A stretch of 64,000 nt of DNA from a phage. The notes beneath the pieces were generated by a model, which was not told the origin of the DNA, did not search any database, and saw only the letters and a program-made list of their open reading frames with translations. Location: the sequence record QB031382.1; one strand, written 5' to 3'. A program made the translations under genes and the position numbers. The stretch's first letter is position 1, and the number at the start of each line of letters is the position of its first letter. This document shows positions 6,404-29,818 of the stretch, in pieces.

Positions 6404-8827
6404 ATGAGCATGTGGTCGTTCGATTTTGAGTCATCCGGTTTGCTGGAAGACCCAGATCTTTATTATCACTGCGGTCTGTTTAAAGAGTTGAATAAGAACC
6501 GTTTTATGCTGTTCCTTCCTCTAAATGACCGCACACACTACTCCGAGGAGGATATAGAAAAGGCTAAGAACTTCATTCTGGCAAAGAAAACTCTTTATAA
6601 AGATTTTGAAGTTCGCATAGCAGATTTTTCGGAGTTGGAAGGTTGGCTTACAGGAAATTCTGACTGGTCACCAACAGCTTTGAACTGCCATAACTGCTAC
6701 AGTTATGACTTTATGCTGATGGAAAGATTATCCGGTATTCATTTTGATATGTTCCGTGATCCTAAATGCATGGGGACTATCAACGACCACCAGGTTAACC
6801 TGTTTGATACGTTGGCGATGAGCCGAATCTTATGGCCTGATCGCCCTTTACCAAAAGGTTGTCCTGACTCCGTATTCAACCCGGTTACTAAGAAAATGCA
6901 GCCTGTTGGTCCTCACGGCCTTATGGCATGGGGCTACGCCCTTGGTAACCAGAAAGTTCAAATTGATGACTGGCGCGATCTTCCGTTGTGGAAGTATGTG
7001 GATCGTGTATTCGAGGACGTTATCATCCAGGAGCTGCTCTGGAAAGAGCTGGTAGCGGAATCAAAAGGTGTATTCTACGGCAAATCTGACATGCAGAACT
7101 TTATGTACGATCCTGCCAAAGAGAAGCCGAAAGGGTTCAAGAAGATCACCTGGAAGAACGCATTGCGCCGGGGTATGCTGCAACACTTCCTGATGGAGCT
7201 GCAGGCCCGTCAGGGTGTGTATTTTGACATAGATGGGGCTATTGCTTTACGTGACCGTTGCGATGCGTGGATGAAAGAAATCGCTGATCGTGTTGAACCA
7301 CAACTACCTTTAAAAGAGCTGTCAATGTCTCAGCGGCCCAAGTTCCCTGAAAAGCCGTTTAACCAAGATGGGACAATCTCCAATAATGGTTGGAAATGGT
7401 TAAAAGATAAGCTTGGCTATCCTGTGGACATGAGCGCTTTAGAGTTCAAAGCCCCACCTAAGCGAGCATTTACCTCCACAGGGGATGTCAGTAAGATGGG
7501 GATAAAATGGTGTGAAGAGATGGGCTGTAAAGACCCTGATAAGATGGCTGATTTCTTGAGGGGCTATATTAAGGGCACTTCCACACCACAACCTTTACCT
7601 AAAGAGCTAATGGATCAGGCAATAAGTGATCTACAGCAGAAGCGAATGCCTGACTGCAAGATACCTATGAAAATCAGCAATCAGGACGACATTAAGCGAT
7701 ACCTGATTAGTGCTGGTTGGCTTCCGACAATGTGGAGAACTAAGGATGTAACTAAAGACAGCAAGAAGAAAGCTCTACCTGATGCAGATGTTGATGCACG
7801 AGTATATGCATATATGGACGAGCTTTTAGAGTCAGAGTATTGTGACCTGATTATCAACTTCTGGAACAAAACTGATGCTAAGTTCCAGACAACCGTGCAC
7901 AAGTTCCGAAGCTTTCCTAACTCCGAAAGGATTAAAAAGGAAGTATTCGGGAAAATACGTAGAAAAGCTAGGGCACTTATTACTTCTCCGCAACTGAAAG
8001 ATACGTTTGGACACCTATGCCCTAATCTTGAAAAATTGAACGGAGAGATGGCTAAAGATATCGTCTTGTGGTTATCATTGCGAAACCGCAGATCGGTACT
8101 TGATCCAATTAAGGAGGATAAGGTTGATACTGGTCTTCTTAATCACCCACGTTTGAAGATTGACCATAAGCTTCCTGCTAAAAGTTCTGGGTTAACAAAC
8201 ACTTCCCGACAGAAACACAGTATTTGTGCGAACATGCCTAAACCATCTCCTAAAGTGGTTATGGGTAAAGAGATGCGTAGTCTGTGGGGTGTTCCTCCGG
8301 GATACTTTGAGATCGGTATTGACGGGTCCAACTTAGAGCAGCTTATCGGGGCTTGGGGTGCCTTTGAGTTCGACAACGGCTTGTATTATGATGTTGTAAG
8401 TAACGGGGACGCACACCAAAACAATGCTGAGGCATATACAAAAGTAGCAGGCAGAGAGGTGTCTCGTAACGACGGTAAACCTATCACGTATGGGGTTATG
8501 TACGGGGCACAAAAAGATAAAGTTGCAGACATGCTGGATATCTCTCCAGAGTTGGGGCAAAGGGTAATCGATGCGCTTTGGGATGCCAACCCCGGTCTTA
8601 AGGGGCGTAAAGAGGATCTAGAGAAATTCTGGGAAGCAACAGGTAAGAAATTTATCTACTCTTTTGACGGTCATGCCATTTGGACCCGCTCTAAACACTC
8701 TTTGCTTAATGCATATCAGCAAAATGGCGGTGCCTCGTTGTGCGACTTGGTCGGAATCCTCATGCACCACCAAATGGTGAAGCGTGGATGGTATGATGAG
8801 GGTGTTCGTCGTATTATTTATTACCAT
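6404..8827 (+). CDS. DNA polymerase, family A, exon 1
   Basis: Exo I SFDFESSGL, motif A GIDGSNLEQL, motif B KPITYGVMYG; exon ends at the CAT (His) codon 8825-8827 before the intron. Confidence 0.85.
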
Positions 8828-9155
8828 AAATAACATTGTGGCTTCGTGCAGTGATGCACGTCGAAAACCTCTTTAATTGACGGGAAGGCTAAGTTGACTT
8901 TTACACCTAAACATGGTAAAAGCTCAATATGCTAATCCGCAGCGAAGCATCCGAGAGGATGAACGTTCAGAGACTATCGAAAGCATAGCTCCAACATAGT
9001 TTGGTGTGAAGAAGCGAGTAGAGTAGGCCAGCAAGTGCGGTCGAAATGAGAGGTGCCTTGGTAACAAGGCAGTGAGATAGTCCGATCCATACGGGAAACT
9101 GTATGGCTATGCACGTAATGGTGCGGGGTAGCTTAACGACCTACCTGAACTATTG
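8828..9155 (+). ncRNA. group I self-splicing intron (no ORF) in the DNA polymerase gene
   Basis: Core elements P AATTGACGGGAA (8875-8886), Q AATCCGCAGC (8934-8943), R GTTCAGAGACTA (8965-8976), S GAGATAGTCC (9074-9083); U before 5' splice site pairs with guide GUGG 8838-8841; G9155 precedes 3' splice site. Confidence 0.75.
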
Positions 9156-9509
9156 GATGAGTACCAACTTCAAGTACCTGACACACCGAAGTATAAGACT
9201 GTGTACACCTTCGACACAATCGAAGAACTGGAAGCATTTAAGGCAGAGCAGGAGGCCAAACTTCATGTGTTCGACGGTCATAAGTACAAAAAGGCACGCA
9301 AGGATGAGGACGGAAACGAAGTGGTTGACAAGGACGGAAATACGGTATACGATCCTATCTTGAACGATGACGGAAAGCTTGAACTTATCTGGAGCCCTGT
9401 GGGCGAAATGGTGGTGCATTGCTTCTGGCAAGCTTCTAAAATGATGGGCGTTCCGTTCCAGATCACAGGTGAATACTTGTGTGGTCGTAATTGGGGTGAT
9501 TGTCACTAA
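9156..9509 (+). CDS. DNA polymerase, family A, exon 2
   Basis: Begins GAT GAG, completing motif C HDE after splicing; ends with PolA C-terminal motif GRNWGDCH. Confidence 0.8.
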   Translation, partial: DEYQLQVPDTPKYKTVYTFDTIEELEAFKAEQEAKLHVFDGHKYKKARKDEDGNEVVDKDGNTVYDPILNDDGKLELIWSPVGEMVVHCFWQASKMMGVPFQITGEYLCGRNWGDCH

Positions 9510-13951: not shown

Positions 13952-13980
13952 AGCCCTGCCCGAAAGGGTGGGGCATTTTT
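13952..13980 (+). terminator. intrinsic terminator
   Basis: Hairpin GCCCTGCCC-GAAA-GGGTGGGGC followed by ATTTTT. Confidence 0.65.
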
Positions 13981-13999: not shown

Positions 14000-14416
14000 A
14001 TGACATTAGAAGATATCATTGTTAAACCTGAGAACTATGACCAATACAATCTATCAACTCAATCTGTGGACCTTGGATGCGCCACTGCCAGTGCGTGGCT
14101 GGTTAACGGAAAAGAGCTGGATAAATGCTTAGAAGCTCACATGTCTATTAACAAGTTTCTGGATGAAAATACTCACTGGCTTGAGGGTGCAGGCGTATAT
14201 GCTTCATGGTTGGAGAGTATGGGATTCGACTACCAATCTGAAGAGGGGTGGTGGAGCTATTTAGCTATCTGTCCAGAGACGCTACAATGCTTCATGAAAT
14301 ATTCTGAAGATTTGGAGTACCGGGCGATGGTTGATAGTGCTATTGCCCGTTATAGCCGTAAACCTTTTTCCCACGACATTAAAACTGTGGAAGAATTTGT
14401 TGAAGTTTTCTGTTGA
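14000..14416 (+). CDS. hypothetical protein
   Basis: SD AAGGAGA upstream. Confidence 0.5.
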   Translation: MTLEDIIVKPENYDQYNLSTQSVDLGCATASAWLVNGKELDKCLEAHMSINKFLDENTHWLEGAGVYASWLESMGFDYQSEEGWWSYLAICPETLQCFMKYSEDLEYRAMVDSAIARYSRKPFSHDIKTVEEFVEVFC

Positions 14417-14512
14417 CACAGATTGAAAGGTGTGCAATTATAACTTCATAGAACGGGAGGACGTGATGAACGAAGAAAACTGGGATGTATAACTAACAGG
14501 AGGCCACTGCCC

Positions 14513-14710
14513 ATGATTTATCGAATCCGTGTAAGAGAAGATGCACCAGGCTGTTACTTTGACTGGCGTGGGTGGTGGTTTCTCCACCCGATGGATGGAC
14601 TCACAGATAGAATGCTGGATGCTGCCCTTTATACAGATACCGACATAGAATATAATCTCTATCTGAAGGACGGTATAGATAACGGTCTATTTGAAGCAAT
14701 TCCTGTGTAA
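14513..14710 (+). CDS. hypothetical protein
   Basis: SD CAGGAGG upstream. Confidence 0.45.
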   Translation: MIYRIRVREDAPGCYFDWRGWWFLHPMDGLTDRMLDAALYTDTDIEYNLYLKDGIDNGLFEAIPV

Positions 14711-14778
14711 GAGGATGTGATAGCCATGTTTTATGATCTTCCTATAGCGCCACCACCTGTTGAACCCGGAGAACTAAG

Positions 14779-15204
14779 ATGACCTATGAAATGCCAAAAC
14801 TGATTCGTGACGATGCCCAAAACGCTCACACCATTATTATGGGCAAACGCATGGATATTATTTGTCATAAAGATTTCTGGGAAGGAAGTTACTTCACAGA
14901 GTATTTTGGTAAACTGGACAATGGTCTGCTGATCCAGTTCTACACCGATGCGGAAAACAACATTCACTGGGAGTTCGAAACTGAAGATATCCATAAACTT
15001 TTCACCTTCCTCGGTATTAAGGTTGAGGCCAAGTTTGAAGAAGGTGAGTGCGACGATTGTGGATTCTACGAGGTAACAGATTTCTATCTTCCGAGTGGTG
15101 AGAACCTTTACTATGAAAGCCACTTCGGTAACTCCAATATGCCACAGTGCTGGACTGAGTTTTTTGAAATTGTGGAAGAGGAGTTGGCATATCGTGATTA
15201 TTGA
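14779..15204 (+). CDS. hypothetical protein
   Basis: 141 aa ORF with GGAGAA upstream. Confidence 0.5.
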   Translation: MTYEMPKLIRDDAQNAHTIIMGKRMDIICHKDFWEGSYFTEYFGKLDNGLLIQFYTDAENNIHWEFETEDIHKLFTFLGIKVEAKFEEGECDDCGFYEVTDFYLPSGENLYYESHFGNSNMPQCWTEFFEIVEEELAYRDY

Positions 15205-15652
15205 TACTGTAGAGGGAGATTTAATCTCCCTTTTTAAGAGTGGTGCTGGTCACCTGATCCACGGTTGTAACTGCTTCCACACAATGGGCAAGGGTGTAGC
15301 AAAACAGATTGCCCGTGAGTTCCCTCAAGCATTGGCAGCTGACAAAACGACTACCTACGGTTGCCTAAGTAAGCTAGGTGCGTTCTCTCGGTGGGAGCAC
15401 TTATCTCCGAAAGGTATTGTCTACGGAATCAATCTATACACTCAGTTCTACCCAGGGCCTAATGCTGAATATTTCTCAATTCTGAAAGGCTTTGAACGAG
15501 TCAATGAGATATTCAAGGGATCTACTTTACCATTCTACATCCCTAAGATTGGGTGCGGCATAGGCGGCTTGAAATGGGGACACGTAGAGGACGTTATTAA
15601 CCTTGCCACTTTTGATATAGATATTATCGTGGTGGAGTACAAAGAGTGTTGA
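15194..15652 (+). CDS. macro-domain (ADP-ribose binding/processing) protein, divergent
   Basis: VEGDLISL, GHLIHGCNC, MGKGVAKQIA and IPKIGCGIGG align with macro-domain motifs GDIT, VNAAN, GGGVDGAI and ISTGIYG; GTG start assumed. Confidence 0.5.
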   Translation: MIIDTVEGDLISLFKSGAGHLIHGCNCFHTMGKGVAKQIAREFPQALAADKTTTYGCLSKLGAFSRWEHLSPKGIVYGINLYTQFYPGPNAEYFSILKGFERVNEIFKGSTLPFYIPKIGCGIGGLKWGHVEDVINLATFDIDIIVVEYKEC

Positions 15653-15677
15653 CAGCCGGATTTTAAGGTGGTATAGT
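15649..15677 (+). promoter_or_regulatory. sigma70-like promoter
   Basis: TTGACA, 17-bp spacer, TATAGT. Confidence 0.5.
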
Positions 15678-15705
15678 CACCACAACGATTAAGACAGGGG
15701 GCACT

Positions 15706-15906
15706 ATGGAGACTAAAATCTTAATTCTAGCTGTGATAGATACAACAGAAGGGGCTATATTTGAATCTGCAGGAGGGTATTTCTACCTGCCCTATGGAAA
15801 AAGAACTTCCGAGCCGAGTAAAGATTCAATCCTCAAAGTGTTCCCGTGTTCTTTCTGGCTGGAGATTCTGGTAGAGGATTGCAAAGGATTGGAGAGACAA
15901 TTATGA
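15706..15906 (+). CDS. hypothetical protein
   Basis: SD upstream; 66 aa. Confidence 0.45.
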   Translation: METKILILAVIDTTEGAIFESAGGYFYLPYGKRTSEPSKDSILKVFPCSFWLEILVEDCKGLERQL

Positions 15907-16097
15907 GAAACAAGAAAGAGCTTTACTCTGGTGAGTGGATCAACGATCAACAGATCGGAGAGGTAACCTGCTTCCGATGTTTTACCAGGTACAATATTAA
16001 AACTGCACCAAAAAGTGTTCCAAAGACTGACGGTTATTACATAAAAGAACCTCATTGCCCAAAATGTAAATGCCGATTGTACTGGAGCAATCTGTAA
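15903..16097 (+). CDS. small zinc-ribbon protein
   Basis: ATGA overlap; two Cys pairs CFRC and CPKC; SD GGAGAG. Confidence 0.45.
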   Translation: MRNKKELYSGEWINDQQIGEVTCFRCFTRYNIKTAPKSVPKTDGYYIKEPHCPKCKCRLYWSNL

Positions 16098-16101
16098 GAG
16101 G

Positions 16102-16129
16102 TTGACATCTGAAAACTGCAGTGTATAAT
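16102..16129 (+). promoter_or_regulatory. sigma70-like promoter
   Basis: TTGACA, 16-bp spacer, TATAAT. Confidence 0.55.
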
Positions 16130-16160
16130 ATACTCATAAACTAACAGAGAGCGATGTATT

Positions 16161-16352
16161 ATGGTAATTTTTAACCGGGATGGTATCATAGTTAGACAGC
16201 ACCCGTTCCTTGAATACTATCAAATTGAGCAATGGTGCTACGGGGATTGCAGTCACTCCTATGGGCAAAGTTGGGGATATCGCACAGTTTTTGAATCAAC
16301 AGACCTTGACAAAGTAAGACAGAAAGTTTTAGAACTTATTAACAACAAGTGA
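16161..16352 (+). CDS. hypothetical protein
   Basis: Tool ORF downstream of promoter. Confidence 0.45.
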   Translation: MVIFNRDGIIVRQHPFLEYYQIEQWCYGDCSHSYGQSWGYRTVFESTDLDKVRQKVLELINNK

Positions 16353-16359
16353 GTATGAT

Positions 16360-16692
16360 ATGGTAACATTAGAAAGACGTAAAGCTATTGCCGCTACACT
16401 GGCAGACATCTTTTGGGATTGTAATTTAAAAGATACCCGATATTGCGGCGCATCTGTAGATGTATTATTCCCACGGCCCACCATTGTTGCAATGGGCAGT
16501 CTACTGGGCGTAGTTGCAGGTGCATGGGATAAGGAAGGCGGTTTTTATATCTGGCAACCTGACTACGGTACCTGGAAAGAAGTAAGGGGTGCTGATGACT
16601 TTGGGCCTGCAGTTGCTAAGATGGATGGCTGGGAAATTTATGTTGGAAACGACATGAAGCTGAAAGGCGAGATTGTTTACTGGTTACCTTAA
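16360..16692 (+). CDS. hypothetical protein
   Basis: Tool ORF in same-strand array. Confidence 0.45.
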   Translation: MVTLERRKAIAATLADIFWDCNLKDTRYCGASVDVLFPRPTIVAMGSLLGVVAGAWDKEGGFYIWQPDYGTWKEVRGADDFGPAVAKMDGWEIYVGNDMKLKGEIVYWLP

Positions 16693-16712
16693 GAAAGTGC
16701 AGGAGATAAAGT

Positions 16713-16958
16713 ATGAACAAAGGGTGGACATTCGTAGACGGCGTTGAAAACATGCCTCTCGGAAAGTATATCGTAGCCATGGCTGACAAGAATGGCAATG
16801 TAGATTTCGGAGCTTGCGAGGTTGTTCTTGCAGGATCTGGTGGCTATGTGCACAAAACTGGGGTAATTAATGGTCAGTTCTACTTTGATCACAACCCTGT
16901 TGTAGCGTATATGGCTATGCCAGAGTTCAAGCTACCAAAGGAAGGTGCTGATGTTTAA
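16713..16958 (+). CDS. hypothetical protein
   Basis: SD CAGGAGA upstream. Confidence 0.5.
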   Translation: MNKGWTFVDGVENMPLGKYIVAMADKNGNVDFGACEVVLAGSGGYVHKTGVINGQFYFDHNPVVAYMAMPEFKLPKEGADV

Positions 16959-17184
16959 GCTTAAATCTGCATGGAACATTGCTGTAGGCGATGAGATCCG
17001 CATTCCGGGTGGGAAGACCGTTATGAAGATATCCCGTATTGAATACGAAGGTGACCGTGTATTCCATATTTTTGCAGAAGATGGTCGAGAAATTTATATA
17101 CAGGCGGGCTCACACATCTATATTCGTAAAGGGGATGACAAACGACAGAGATCATCATTTCAACTGCAGGGTATGTATTCCTGA
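16951..17184 (+). CDS. hypothetical protein
   Basis: ATG after AAGGAAGG; overlaps upstream stop. Confidence 0.45.
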   Translation: MFKLKSAWNIAVGDEIRIPGGKTVMKISRIEYEGDRVFHIFAEDGREIYIQAGSHIYIRKGDDKRQRSSFQLQGMYS

Positions 17185-26978: not shown

Positions 26979-27731
26979 TGCTCTTTTCCTACCATAAACG
27001 GCCCTACCTGGCAAGTGGAATAATTGACGAGCCATTAATCCCGCACACTGTACAAATATACATATAAAATAACTATTGCATAATCTTTCATCTTGTGGTA
27101 GCAGGGTCATTTTTACACGTTTTTCCTTCCAAAAATGCACGTAATGCAGCTATTGCACAAAATTTAACCTGATGCACATTTTCAGCATACTGTCAACAAT
27201 TAAAAACCCTTATAAATCATACACTTACACAAACCAAAAAGCGTGTCCTACGTGAAAAATCGGGTGTAACTATAGCCGACAGATCTCAGAATCCACGTAC
27301 GATCACCATTCTATAGCCTGCTAAGTATTTATTCCAACCACAGAATAACGGAATAGTCAATACCTGTACAAAATAATTATTCGTATAAACTGCATAACAT
27401 AAATTTTCTCATGTGTAAACATTTTTCGTAAACAGTCCGAAATTGTCACGATAGGTTACTATAATCAGAGAAATCTTTAGTCGTCTAATGTTTACTGCAC
27501 ATAACTATACTGACTGGAATCATTAGATGACTAAGAGAAAGATAAGAAATAGTTAACAATGTAATTGTTTTACCTGTAACAATAAGGCAACTATGCAAAC
27601 GAATGTCATGGCGCGACGGAGTCGCGACATAATATAAAAGCAGTAACCATCACCCCCGTGATAGTTTATCTGCAAACTATTGATCAGATCATAGTTGCCT
27701 TAGATTTAGTTAATCATGACATAATAAGCAA

Positions 27732-27759
27732 GGCAACTATAGATCTGATAATAGTTGCC
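27732..27759. repeat. perfect palindrome
   Basis: GGCAACTAT-AGATCTGAT-AATAGTTGCC; half-sites recur nearby. Confidence 0.55.
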
Positions 27760-27789
27760 CTGCTTTTATATTATGTCATATATTATTAA

Positions 27790-27850
27790 CCTGTTAATTG
27801 TCAGCTTATTGGCTGTTAGCTTGTCAATTGTTAACTTGTTAATTGTTATC
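27790..27850. repeat. four tandem 15-bp iteron-like repeats
   Basis: CTGTTAATTGTCAGC / TTATTGGCTGTTAGC / TTGTCAATTGTTAAC / TTGTTAATTGTTATC. Confidence 0.55.
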
Positions 27851-29482
27851 ATGCAAACGAATGTCATGGCTTATCATCTTTGTGTAAACTGTCAGGGTGT
27901 AGACTATTCAAGGTGTAAATTATTCAGATGCAAACTATCCAGGCGTAAACAGTCTATGCGGGAACAATCTGCACGTGAACAATGAAACATGAAATAATAA
28001 CAGTCGTTATTGTATCGAAAGTGTATAAGGTGTCAGATTATGGCATATTGTGTGACATTGTGTCAGACAAGTTTTTCTCCTCTTTGTCAAGTGCTGCATG
28101 TAAAATTTACAAACTGGTATGGTAGCATTTTTGCGGCCCTGTTTACATTCAGGAGTGTATGTATAACCCTTGTTGTGTGGGCGTTTAGACGTCTGGACGG
28201 TCAGAAGTCTGCAGGTTAATATCTAATCTATTGGTCGCTAACTATATCCCCACAAATAATAAGAAATGCAATTGTTATATGCGTAAACAGTAACTCATGT
28301 TATCAATCCCTGTATGTATCGCCAGTGGTGCGCATAATGGGTATTATGTTAAATTGCCCGTAATGATAACGATTCTCACAATGATAGGTATTCTCATTCA
28401 CCCGCCCAGGATAGGTTGCAAATGTTGTGCCACTGTGTGAACGGCCTCGCCTATTAATTTGCCTCACTGCCCCGATATTTGAGAATTATTATAAGAATGA
28501 GAAGTATTCCCATTTCGTCCGCCTGGCAGCACTCCTGTAGGACAAGCACAAAATCGTGGCATAACTGTACCTGTTCAGATATTTCTGGCTGACTCTTCAG
28601 GTCTGTGTGGGAAAAGCCAACCTCTCCGGCGGCGGGGAGTGGGTCAATTAAAAAATTTACGTGGTGTATGAAGCGCTCTTCAGGTAAGGCAGGTATTATG
28701 GGATGAATCACTCTTCAGGTGATGATATTTGTAGGTGTGATATTTGCTGGAAAGCCAGATATGACGGGACTCCCGGCGGGGCAGGGGTAGTACAGACAGG
28801 GAAAATGTGGAGAATGTGGTGGGTAAATTGATCAAGCAGGTAGAGTATGGAATATGTTACAGGTATGTTAAATATGGAGGTAAGATATTTGTAAGATTTG
28901 TGTGTAAAATCAAAGACTTAAGTAGTGTTGTGGTATTTTCTATAAATAATTCAAGTTTAATAGGGAATATTTGCCTCTATCCACTTTGTATGGTAACTAT
29001 ATTCTAATTGAATTGGTTTACAAGTGTATATAAAGTATACAAATTAAAGATACAAGAAACCCCCCTCCCCCTTCGGCTACCATTCACCTTTTCCTCTGAC
29101 TGGTACTTAAACACTTATTCAGACTCTTCAGGTTATCACTCATATATCATATGGCAGTGACTGGTGTCCTCCGGCCCCTCTTTCGTCACCCGTCCGCTTC
29201 GCCATGCTAATGCCATAGCTAACTGTTCGGTTGTTCACCCTGTTCACTCAGGTGTATCTCCATACCCCTTCAAACCGAAGAGAACAGAAAACCCGAATTA
29301 CTCGGTAAAAGAAAAGAGAAGAACTTAATTTTATCAGGATAGGCAAGAATGTCAAGGCATGACTGCTCACTAAACAAGCAAACAGTCATGTGTGGGAGGT
29401 AAGTGATTGTGGTGGTAGGAAATTTAGTTGAAAGATGTGTTATAGGTGCTTCCAGCACTTTAGCCTGGCAGCTAATTGTGTG

Positions 29483-29698
29483 TCAGTCCAGCGGTTCATC
29501 CTCTACTTCACTGAAATCAATGTTCAGGGTCTCTTCCCAACCATCGATCTCAGCACAAGAGTGGAGTTCTTTAGGGTTTACTCCCAAAGCCTCAGCAACA
29601 GAGTCTATATTTAACACCTCTGGCAGGTATGATTCATCGAATTCAAGGTAAATCAGGCCACGAGTGTTGTCAGCTCCACCAAATATTTCTATCTTCAT
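29483..29698 (-). CDS. hypothetical acidic protein
   Basis: Tool ORF; last gene of minus-strand block. Confidence 0.4.
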   Translation of the reverse strand: MKIEIFGGADNTRGLIYLEFDESYLPEVLNIDSVAEALGVNPKELHSCAEIDGWEETLNIDFSEVEDEPLD

Positions 29699-29818
29699 AA
29701 AATCTCCTCTGGAAATGAGAGTGTGAACAGGGTTATACGTTCCAATGCGCAGGAATTTATATACGTTTGCCTCTTCAGGCCATGCTTTAGCATGATAAAC
29801 TTATGTGGGCTCGGTGCT

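What the first reader, a model, noticed from the sequence alone, without database searches (positions are those of the whole stretch)
15194..15652. Divergent macro-domain protein among early genes
The segments GDLISL, GHLIHGCNC, MGKGVAKQIA and IPKIGCGIGG align with the macro-domain motifs for ADP-ribose binding, with several substitutions. Phage macro domains could reverse ADP-ribosylation or degrade ADP-ribose-derived signals used by host defences.
Basis: partly seen in the sequence, partly recalled or inferred. Interest (0 to 1): 0.5.

Follow-up and report, generated by a model that had tools for sequence, protein, structure and literature searches.

The report
Phage macrodomain that likely counters DarT2
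This is a real 152-residue macrodomain gene in an rV5-like E. coli phage; it belongs to the family of phage T4 Tk.4 ("AdfM"), which T4 needs to resist the DNA-ADP-ribosylating DarTG2 defence, so it is a recognisable member of a known counter-defence family and not a new kind of thing.

Summary

The window is a Vequintavirus (rV5/FV3-like E. coli phage), and near-identical genes are already annotated "macro domain protein" or "phosphatase". The protein is 39% identical (E 8e-41) to T4 Tk.4. A 2025 preprint named Tk.4 AdfM because deleting it makes T4 sensitive to DarTG2.

The most likely mechanism is removal of ADP-ribose that DarT2 attaches to thymidines in phage single-stranded DNA. This is inferred, not tested here.

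One detail adds something. The catalytic lysine of DarG and TARG1 is an invariant glutamine (Q84) in all 228 family members that align at that position, as in Streptomyces SCO6735, which is active on this substrate. The family is therefore a different lineage from the Lys-type PhiKZ protein also called AdfM.

The gene sits in a 780-bp island only 75-84% identical to FV3, with 99-100% identical flanks. Some relatives are fused to NADAR domains.

Interest is low to moderate. It is a new member of a known kind.

The parts
15194..15652 (+). CDS of the macrodomain protein (152 aa, GTG start, TGA stop included). It belongs to the T4 Tk.4/AdfM family, PHROG 335.
15175..15183 (+). Shine-Dalgarno-like GAAGAGGAG. 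The AGGAG ends 10 nt before the GTG start.
   Evidence: read from the sequence
14779..15204 (+). Upstream ORF (141 aa, PHROG 8157, unknown function). Its stop overlaps the macro gene's start by 11 nt, so the two are probably co-transcribed and translationally coupled.
15260..15274 (+). Codons for H23-G-C-N26-C27. N26 aligns with the catalytic Asn22 of DarG, N23 of PhiKZ AdfM and N27 of SCO6735. H23 aligns with SCO6735 H24 and Poa1p H23.
   Evidence: N26 in 230/230 and H23 in 227/230 family members
15284..15295 (+). Codons for M31-G-K33-G34, the first glycine-rich loop that would bind ADP-ribose phosphate. K33 matches DarG and SCO6735 K34 but is rare in this family (4/232).
15431..15448 (+). 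Codons for N80-L-Y-T-Q84-F. Q84 (CAG, 15443-15445) occupies the position of the catalytic Lys80 of DarG and Lys84 of TARG1, and of Gln85 of SCO6735.
   Evidence: Q in 228/228
15542..15568 (+). Codons for P117-K-I-G-C-G-I-G-G125, the second glycine-rich loop. TARG1 Asp125 corresponds to G124 here, so there is no Lys/Asp dyad.
14413..14441 (+). Nearest strong sigma70-like promoter upstream on the same strand (TTGACA-17-AATTAT with TG). It is a candidate start of the transcription unit holding the macro gene. A weaker site lies at 14628-14656.
   Evidence: consensus scan only
15649..15677 (+). Sigma70-like promoter (TTGACA-17-TATAGT, 11/12, extended -10). Its -35 hexamer contains the macro gene's stop codon, and it would drive the next small gene.
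15173..15950 (.). Divergence island relative to phage FV3: 75-84% nucleotide identity, while 12.5-15.0 kb and 16.0-18.2 kb are 99-100% identical. It covers the macro gene, the next small ORF (15706-15906) and the start of the one after. This looks like a recombinational allele swap.

Best explanation
The ORF encodes a stand-alone macrodomain enzyme of the ALC1-like class (TARG1/DarG/SCO6735), in the same family as phage T4 Tk.4 (AdfM). The most likely role is as follows. The gene is expressed from host-type promoters in a block of small accessory genes. The protein binds ADP-ribose that the host toxin DarT2 has attached to thymidines in single-stranded phage DNA, and it hydrolyses the ADP-ribose-thymine bond. 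That would restore replicable and transcribable DNA and so neutralise DarTG2 abortive-infection defence. Chemically it should work like SCO6735 and not like DarG: it has no catalytic lysine. An invariant Gln84, together with Asn26 and the two glycine loops, would position the substrate and a water molecule. What is shown here: the fold, the class, family membership, the conserved residues and purifying selection. What is shown elsewhere for relatives: T4 tk.4 is required against DarTG2 (genetics), and Gln-type SCO6735 removes thymidine-linked ADP-ribose, with Q85 essential (biochemistry). What is inferred: that this rV5-type protein has the same substrate and the same role.
Confidence: 0.7

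Rival explanations
1. It acts on soluble ADP-ribose derivatives: as an ADP-ribose-1''-phosphate phosphatase like yeast Poa1p (the historical 'A1pp phosphatase' annotation), as an O-acetyl-ADP-ribose deacetylase, or as a degrader of ADP-ribose-derived immune signals. The last of these is the first reader's second suggestion.
Against: T4 genetics give a specific DarTG2 phenotype for the orthologue. Phage NADARs, for which the same survey made the same prediction, have since been shown to de-ADP-ribosylate DNA (PMC11825919). No KptA/Tpt1, 2H phosphoesterase, RNA ligase, sirtuin or TIR domain was detected among the 62 window ORFs of 100 aa or more that were scanned. The 'phosphatase' name is carried over from motif similarity and no assay lies behind it.
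Confidence: 0.1
2. It reverses ADP-ribosylation of proteins or RNA, not DNA. The modification could come from another host defence ADP-ribosyltransferase or from a phage-encoded transferase whose marks need trimming.
For: TARG1 and SCO6735, close structural relatives, also hydrolyse protein-linked ADP-ribose (PMC9411070). T4, which carries the orthologue, encodes the ADP-ribosyltransferases Alt, ModA and ModB (own knowledge; Alt and ModA are mentioned).
Against: No ART domain was found in the window. Bas54, a Vequintavirinae phage, is sensitive to Mokosh type I and was partly rescued by supplying T4 Alt, which suggests V5-like phages lack that transferase. CmdTAC, an mRNA ADP-ribosyltransferase defence, strongly restricts T4 even though T4 has tk.4, so the family does not obviously erase that mark (PMC11618068). 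DarG itself is DNA-specific.
Confidence: 0.1
3. It neutralises DarT2 mainly by binding and blocking the toxin, acting as a stoichiometric antitoxin mimic, with little or no catalysis.
For: Catalytically dead SCO6735 Q85A, DarG K80A and TARG1 K84A still inhibit DarT in vitro, and SCO6735 is the strongest of the three (PMC9411070). The ICP1 anti-DarT factor AdfB works by direct interaction (PMC11481870). The canonical catalytic Lys is missing here.
Against: The putative active-site residues are invariant across 230 or so diverse family members (N26, Q84, both Gly loops), which is expected of an enzyme and not of a binder co-evolving with variable toxins. The protein has no counterpart of DarG's C-terminal DarT-binding domain: it is 152 aa and matches only positions 3-143 of the 338-position DarG model. 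PhiKZ AdfM needs its catalytic Asn (N23A construct, PMC13309987).
Confidence: 0.07
4. It is a decayed or binding-only macrodomain with no role in infection.
For: The Pfam score is only just above threshold. The Lys and Asp residues of the TARG1 dyad are absent.
Against: dN/dS is 0.05-0.13. The motifs are invariant. The model has pLDDT 97. The family has 1,361 clusters at 50% identity with E <= 1e-30 and is present in 2,817 phage records. The T4 orthologue has a phenotype.
Confidence: 0.02

Closest known systems
Phage T4 Tk.4 = AdfM (anti-DarT factor Macrodomain; preprint 10.1101/2025.11.20.689424), PHROG 335
   Same: Same family. 39% identity over the full length, E 8e-41. Same size (152 vs 155 aa). 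Same stand-alone architecture. Same motifs HGCNC, MGxG, NLYTQF and IGxGIG. Both lie among small accessory genes of a large lytic myovirus of E. coli.
   Different: A different phage lineage (Vequintavirus vs Tequatrovirus) and different neighbours, with no tk or vs genes nearby. This copy has K33 in the first Gly loop where T4 has S. The anti-DarTG2 role is demonstrated genetically only for T4.
Streptomyces coelicolor SCO6735 / Bacteroides BT1257 (PDB 5E3B, 2FG1, 2AFC), the Gln-type ALC1-like macrodomains
   Different: Only 22-28% identity. The phage family lacks the 5-residue longer mobile loop, including K89, that defines the SCO6735 subclass. SCO6735 is a cellular, DNA-damage-regulated gene and not a phage gene.
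DarG antitoxin macrodomain of DarTG2 (Thermus aquaticus 5M31/5M3E, M. tuberculosis 5M3I)
   Different: Lys80 is replaced by Gln. There is no C-terminal DarT-binding domain and no adjacent darT. The score of 44 bits is far below the equivalog cut-off of 250.
Chimallivirus AdfM (PhiKZ gp104; PMC13309987)
   Same: A stand-alone phage macrodomain with the same name and the same proposed job. For PhiKZ, removal of DarT2 ADP-ribose from DNA is shown biochemically.
   Different: A separate lineage. PhiKZ gp104 is a close DarG relative (133-138 bits to DarG models, motif FPTKDNW with Lys78). It is barely detectable from the window protein by BLAST (E 0.002 over 20 residues). It is imported into the phage nucleus, which rV5-like phages do not have.
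Human TARG1/OARD1 (4J5R/4J5S)
   Same: Best Foldseek match (TM 0.78-0.85); ALC1-like class. TARG1 can also remove T-linked ADPr from DNA (PMC9411070).
   Different: TARG1 uses a Lys84/Asp125 dyad, and both residues are absent here (Q84, G124). TARG1 lacks the conserved Asn.
Yeast Poa1p (6LFQ-6LFU), an ADP-ribose-1''-phosphate phosphatase
   Different: 24% identity and about 25 residues longer. It acts on a soluble tRNA-splicing by-product. I could not obtain a residue-level alignment at the Q84 position.

Membership tests
Macro domain superfamily (Pfam PF01661) | HMM score at or above Pfam's gathering threshold | tested here: met
   26.9 bits against a cut-off of 22, E 5.1e-6, in two stretches
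Macro domain superfamily (Pfam PF01661) | Three-layer alpha/beta/alpha fold with a central mixed beta-sheet | tested here: met
Macro domain superfamily (Pfam PF01661) | Two glycine-rich loops that clamp the ADP-ribose diphosphate | tested here: met
   MGKG (31-34) and GCGIGG (120-125). G34, G120 and G122 are invariant in the family.
Macro domain superfamily (Pfam PF01661) | Binds ADP-ribose | not testable with these tools
   Needs ITC, a thermal-shift assay or a co-crystal
ALC1-like class (TARG1 / DarG / SCO6735 / Poa1p) | Closest sequence and structural neighbours belong to this class and not to the MacroD, PARG, macroH2A or viral-nsp3 types | tested here: met
T4 Tk.4 / AdfM family (PHROG 335) | Full-length homology to T4 Tk.4 and to the PHROG profile | tested here: met
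   PHROG 335 E 1e-58, residues 1-151. T4 Tk.4 39% identity, E 8e-41, residues 1-150.
T4 Tk.4 / AdfM family (PHROG 335) | Family signature H-G-[CA]-N-C ... N-x-Y-T-Q-[FY] ... P-x-[IL]-G-[CA]-G-[IL]-[GA]-G | tested here: met
   All signature positions are present. The signature was derived here from 232 members.
T4 Tk.4 / AdfM family (PHROG 335) | Confers resistance to DarTG2 | not testable with these tools
   Shown only for T4. Needs plaque assays.
DarG antitoxin (NCBIfam NF048014 equivalog; PADLOC DarG) | Score above the equivalog cut-off | tested here: not met
   44.1 bits against 250. Only model positions 3-143 of 338 are matched.
DarG antitoxin (NCBIfam NF048014 equivalog; PADLOC DarG) | C-terminal DarT-binding domain and an adjacent darT gene | tested here: not met
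   The protein is a 152-aa single domain. Its neighbours are unknown-function PHROGs, one of which (15846-16097) carries a Pfam phage zinc-binding domain and the rest no Pfam domain. No ART domain was found in the window.
DarG antitoxin (NCBIfam NF048014 equivalog; PADLOC DarG) | Catalytic Lys80 (and Asn22) | tested here: not met
   Asn is present (N26) but Lys is replaced by Gln84
Chimallivirus AdfM (PhiKZ gp104 lineage) | Close DarG-like sequence with the Lys-type active site | tested here: not met
   BLASTP E 0.002 over 20 residues. DarG-model score is 47 bits here against 133 bits for gp104.
SCO6735 / BT1257 subclass | Gln at the catalytic-Lys position | tested here: met
   Q84 aligns with Q85
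SCO6735 / BT1257 subclass | Mobile loop five residues longer than in DarG and TARG1 | tested here: not met
   The phage family has the short loop. SCO6735's GMKTG insertion aligns to a gap.
Poa1p-type Appr-1''-p phosphatase | Phosphatase activity on ADP-ribose-1''-phosphate | not testable with these tools
   Only fold and motif similarity are available. The Poa1p structure paper is not in the library.

The most novel reading that the evidence does not exclude
The Gln-type phage macrodomains (Tk.4 family) could be a mechanistically distinct, lysine-independent group of erasers whose substrate range is wider than, or different from, DarT2-made thymidine-ADPr. Candidates include other ADP-ribosylated bases, RNA, proteins or soluble ADPr derivatives. 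On this reading, the cassette-like allele exchange seen here among otherwise 99-100% identical Vequintaviruses would reflect matching of alleles to different host ADP-ribosylating defences.
Probability: 0.15. Interest if true: 0.5.

Novelty: new member of a known kind. Interest (0 to 1): 0.25.

Why it matters
If correct, rV5-like phages, which are used in E. coli O157 typing and in therapy cocktails, carry a ready-made enzymatic answer to DarTG2. That bears on predicting host range against strains that encode DarTG. The analysis makes three further points: (i) the two phage proteins both named AdfM (T4 Tk.4 and PhiKZ gp104) belong to different macrodomain lineages with different active sites; (ii) the Tk.4 family universally has Gln where DarG and TARG1 have their catalytic Lys, which points to the SCO6735-type mechanism; (iii) the 'phosphatase' label propagated in phage annotation is probably wrong. 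None of this is a new kind of biology.

Tried and rejected
1. I looked for a partner gene that would favour a different role. Pfam scans of the ten neighbouring ORFs and of 62 window ORFs of 100 aa or more found no NADAR, ART, KptA/Tpt1, 2H, sirtuin, TIR or RNA ligase. The only hits were replication and nucleotide-metabolism genes. Only 25 of the 27 matched families were displayed, so a weak hit could have been hidden.

2. I looked for the Vequintavirinae NADAR AdfN(Bas60) reported in PMC11825919. It was not detected in this window. It may lie elsewhere in the genome, or be confined to other members of the Vequintavirinae.

3. I tried to get a residue-level comparison with Poa1p at the Q84 position. 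The single-sequence alignment covers only residues 6-46, the top five profile alignments were taken up by TARG1 duplicates, and the Poa1p structure paper is not in the library.

4. I considered filing the protein as a DarG or as a PhiKZ-type AdfM. Both were rejected on score, architecture and the missing Lys.

5. I considered that the missing Lys means an inactive reader domain. This was rejected because of the SCO6735 precedent, the invariance of Q84 and N26, and the T4 phenotype.

6. A search of the HIDEN-SEQ supplements for the Bas54 orthologue's essentiality call ('macro', 'phosphatase') found nothing for Bas54.

7. An ARAGORN scan found no tRNA genes in the window, so there is no local link to tRNA repair.

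8. I could not access the model coordinates to measure the geometry of Q84 and N26.

Full report
WHAT IS THERE. The window is a Vequintavirus, an rV5/FV3-like lytic myovirus of E. coli. Window 14000-17000 is 95-97% identical over its full length to phages SYGMH1, HMD-6, YN3 and FV3. At 15194-15652 on the + strand there is an ORF of 152 codons plus a stop. It starts with GTG, 10 nt downstream of an AGGAG (15179-15183, read). It overlaps the stop codon of the preceding ORF (14779-15204) by 11 nt. The longer reading from GTG 15095 is not used by homologues, whose N-termini all align with MII(D/K)T. HMD-6 annotates exactly this 459-nt CDS, and the GTG start is conserved in HMD-6 and FV3.

IS IT A MACRODOMAIN? 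Yes.
The hit is weak and split in two, which is the only sense in which the protein is "divergent".
- PHROG 335 matches at E 1e-58 over residues 1-151.
- A profile built from 56 homologues (alignment A1) finds the M. tuberculosis DarG macrodomain (E 2.4e-18), TARG1 (2e-17), SCO6735 (5.6e-17), BT1257 (6.8e-17), T. aquaticus DarG (1.8e-16) and Poa1p (5.7e-15) in the PDB. Coronavirus nsp3 and MacroD-type domains come only at about 4e-3.
- AlphaFold2 with that alignment gives pLDDT 97.1 and pTM 0.91.
- Foldseek puts TARG1 first (E 6.5e-10, TM 0.78/0.84), followed by Poa1p, DarG, BT1257 and SCO6735.
The protein is therefore a canonical member of the ALC1-like (TARG1/DarG) class. dN/dS against the HMD-6 and FV3 orthologues is 0.05-0.13, so it is a functional gene.

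WHICH FAMILY? tblastn finds a homologue in 2,817 of 50,697 phage records. In T-even phages the match falls on gene tk.4, between tk and vs. Against T4 Tk.4 itself (NP_049723, annotated "phosphatase; contains A1pp phosphatase motif"), the window protein is 39% identical over 150 residues, E 8e-41. In the 1.84-billion-protein representative library, the family profile finds 1,361 clusters at E <= 1e-30.

WHAT IS KNOWN ABOUT THAT FAMILY.
- A November 2025 preprint (HIDEN-SEQ, 10.1101/2025.11.20.689424, read) challenged a T4 transposon library with DarTG2 and got a single significant hit, tk.4. A clean deletion made T4 sensitive to DarTG2. The authors renamed the gene adfM (anti-DarT factor Macrodomain) and inferred, without an assay, that it removes ADP-ribose from DNA.
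- This fits the earlier finding that T4 lacking adfA and adfN is still fully DarTG2-resistant (PMC11825919).
- Independently, a 2026 Cell Reports paper gave the same name, AdfM, to PhiKZ gp104. It showed biochemically that gp104 removes DarT2-made ADP-ribose from DNA (PMC13309987).
- DarT2 ADP-ribosylates thymidines in single-stranded DNA and blocks replication. DarG2's macrodomain reverses this (PMC5179494 and PMC11825919, as summarised).

THE ACTIVE SITE, AND TWO DIFFERENT "AdfM" LINEAGES. I reconstructed the DarG, TARG1 and SCO6735 segments from the HMMER alignments. I translated PhiKZ gp104 from the construct sequence printed in the paper, then aligned everything (A3). Counting along the PDB chain shows that T. 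aquaticus DarG N22 and K80 are the second N of VNTVN and the first K of FPTKK.
- The window protein keeps the Asn (N26) but has Gln (Q84, motif NLYTQF) where DarG has K80, TARG1 has K84 and PhiKZ AdfM has K78.
- TARG1's Asp125 corresponds to Gly124.
- T4 Tk.4 has the same NLYTQF.
- Among 232 family members aligned to the A1 HMM, Q84 is present in 228 of 228 sequences that have a residue there, N26 in 230/230 and H23 in 227/230. The "substitution" is therefore a defining feature of the family and not a decay of this copy.
- The only characterised macrodomain with Gln at this position is Streptomyces SCO6735. It removes DarT-made thymidine-ADPr faster than DarG or TARG1 and rescues cells from DarT. 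It loses all activity in Q85A/E, and a water-mediated, lysine-independent mechanism has been proposed for it (PMC9411070).
- The phage family differs from SCO6735/BT1257 in lacking their 5-residue longer mobile loop.
- PhiKZ gp104 is a close DarG relative: E 9e-25 to Mtb DarG and 133-138 bits on DarG models. The window protein scores 44-47 bits and T4 Tk.4 30-36 bits on the same models. The window protein and gp104 match each other only at E 0.002 over 20 residues.
The two proteins called AdfM are thus separate recruitments from the same macrodomain class, and the window protein belongs to the Tk.4 lineage.

CONTEXT.
- The gene lies in a long + strand run of small ORFs downstream of the replication genes (methylases, DnaB-like helicase, family-A polymerase). 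Its ten neighbours all belong to PHROGs of unknown function. Only one carries a Pfam domain, a phage zinc-binding domain.
- Sigma70-like promoters are enriched in 11.5-19 kb (27 against 15.1 +/- 4.2 in shuffles). Strong + strand sites lie at 14413-14441, at 15649-15677 (its -35 hexamer contains the macro stop codon) and at 16102-16129 (a perfect 12/12 consensus). A terminator-like hairpin lies at 13953-13974. This is compatible with early, host-RNA-polymerase transcription, but it is a consensus scan and not an expression measurement.
- No NADAR, ADP-ribosyltransferase, KptA/Tpt1, 2H, sirtuin or RNA ligase domain was found among the 62 window ORFs of 100 aa or more that were scanned.
- Three long members of the family (P0114, P0192, P0209) are fusions of this macrodomain with a NADAR domain, and P0114 also carries DUF4326. 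NADAR is the guanine-ADPr DNA eraser of DarG1 and AdfN, so these fusions look like combined erasers of both DarT marks.

A LOCAL ALLELE SWAP. Against FV3, the window is 99-100% identical from 12.5 to 15.0 kb and from 16.0 to 18.2 kb, but only 75-84% identical across 15173-15950. Of the 139 mismatches between 14900 and 16200, 135 fall in that interval. The island starts about 20 nt before the macro start codon. It ends just inside the second downstream ORF. Within the macro gene dS is about 1.1 and dN/dS is 0.11. This indicates replacement by an old, functional allele and not recent positive selection. The window's allele is the rarer one: only 3 phage records are 95% identical or more at the protein level, 69 are at 90-95% and 42 at 80-90%. 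It carries K33 in the first Gly loop, as DarG and SCO6735 do (SCO6735 K34E nearly abolishes DNA activity). Most of the family has A, S or G there, and K occurs in 4/232. Cassette-like exchange of this kind is typical of accessory and counter-defence genes. Whether the alleles differ in function is unknown.

MECHANISM AND CONFIDENCE. The best-supported reading is a stand-alone ADP-ribosylglycohydrolase that strips DarT2-made ADP-ribose from thymidines in phage ssDNA. It would use an Asn/Gln, lysine-independent active site of the SCO6735 type. I put the macrodomain identity at about 0.99, Tk.4-family membership at about 0.97, and the anti-DarT2 DNA-eraser function of this particular protein at about 0.7. 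The rivals are:
- action on soluble ADPr derivatives (the historical "phosphatase" label, Poa1p similarity, and the prediction of PMC9503650);
- reversal of protein or RNA ADP-ribosylation;
- stoichiometric DarT inhibition without catalysis;
- a dead domain.
The evidence for and against each is set out in the rivals section. CmdTAC restricts T4 despite tk.4 (PMC11618068), which argues against erasure of that RNA mark.

NOVELTY. Near-identical genes are already annotated "macro domain protein", "macro domain-containing protein" or "phosphatase" in GenBank. The family's founding member has a published (preprint) counter-defence phenotype. This copy is an untested orthologue in another phage subfamily, so it is a new member of a known kind. 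A specialist would not be surprised. The modest added value is the Gln-type active-site assignment, the separation of the two AdfM lineages, the NADAR fusions and the allele-swap island.

Noticed in passing
window 8818-9105 (+), with 6404-8833 and 9153-9509: Rfam finds a group I intron (RF00028, 75.6 bits, E 2e-17) at the end of the 809-aa DNA polymerase ORF. A 118-aa ORF follows, and its FV3 counterpart is annotated as a second 'DNA polymerase' piece. FV3 carries a 528-bp insertion (an HNH homing endonuclease ORF) between window positions 8947 and 8962 that this phage lacks, so this is an endonuclease-less version of the polymerase intron.
   Followed up: partly
window about 27200-29800: A CDS-poor stretch of about 2-2.6 kb where the + strand gene block ends and the - strand block begins. 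It is AT-rich (GC 0.35 at 27.0-28.0 kb), has several direct and inverted repeats (for example 34-nt copies 60 nt apart at 27675 and 27735, and an 18-nt perfect inverted repeat at 27626 and 27760), and holds the maximum of cumulative GC skew. ARAGORN finds no tRNA anywhere in the window. The HIDEN-SEQ preprint reports that an approximately 2-kb intergenic region between oppositely transcribed genes in the Vequintavirinae phage Bas54, possibly the counterpart of this stretch, tolerates no transposon insertions. It may be a replication origin or another essential cis element.
   Followed up: partly
window 15173-15950 vs L003 (FV3): A sharp island of 75-84% identity inside flanks that are 99-100% identical. 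It covers the macro gene and the next small ORF (15706-15906, PHROG 15268, unknown function). This is an allele swap by recombination, and whether the downstream ORF is functionally linked to the macro gene is unknown.
   Followed up: partly
family members P0114, P0192, P0209: Metagenomic relatives fuse this Gln-type macrodomain to a NADAR domain, and in P0114 also to DUF4326. P0224 fuses DUF4326 to the macrodomain. These are potential dual erasers of thymidine- and guanine-linked ADP-ribose. I did not check where they come from.
   Followed up: no
one search hit table: Sixteen records named 'Campylobacter phage' (15 list host Campylobacter jejuni) match this E. coli rV5-like region; apart from one unidentified record at 80-90%, all matching records are at least 90% identical. 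This suggests mis-assigned hosts or contaminant phages in those submissions.
   Followed up: no
window 16102-16129 (+), 15649-15677 (+), 14413-14441 (+): A series of near-consensus sigma70 promoters between the small genes, including a perfect TTGACA-16-TATAAT at 16102. The -35 box at 15649 overlaps the macro gene's stop codon.
   Followed up: no
window 15846-16097 (+): A small ORF two genes downstream carries a Pfam 'Phage zinc binding domain' (PF23903, E 1.8e-22). It is the only neighbour with any Pfam hit.
   Followed up: no
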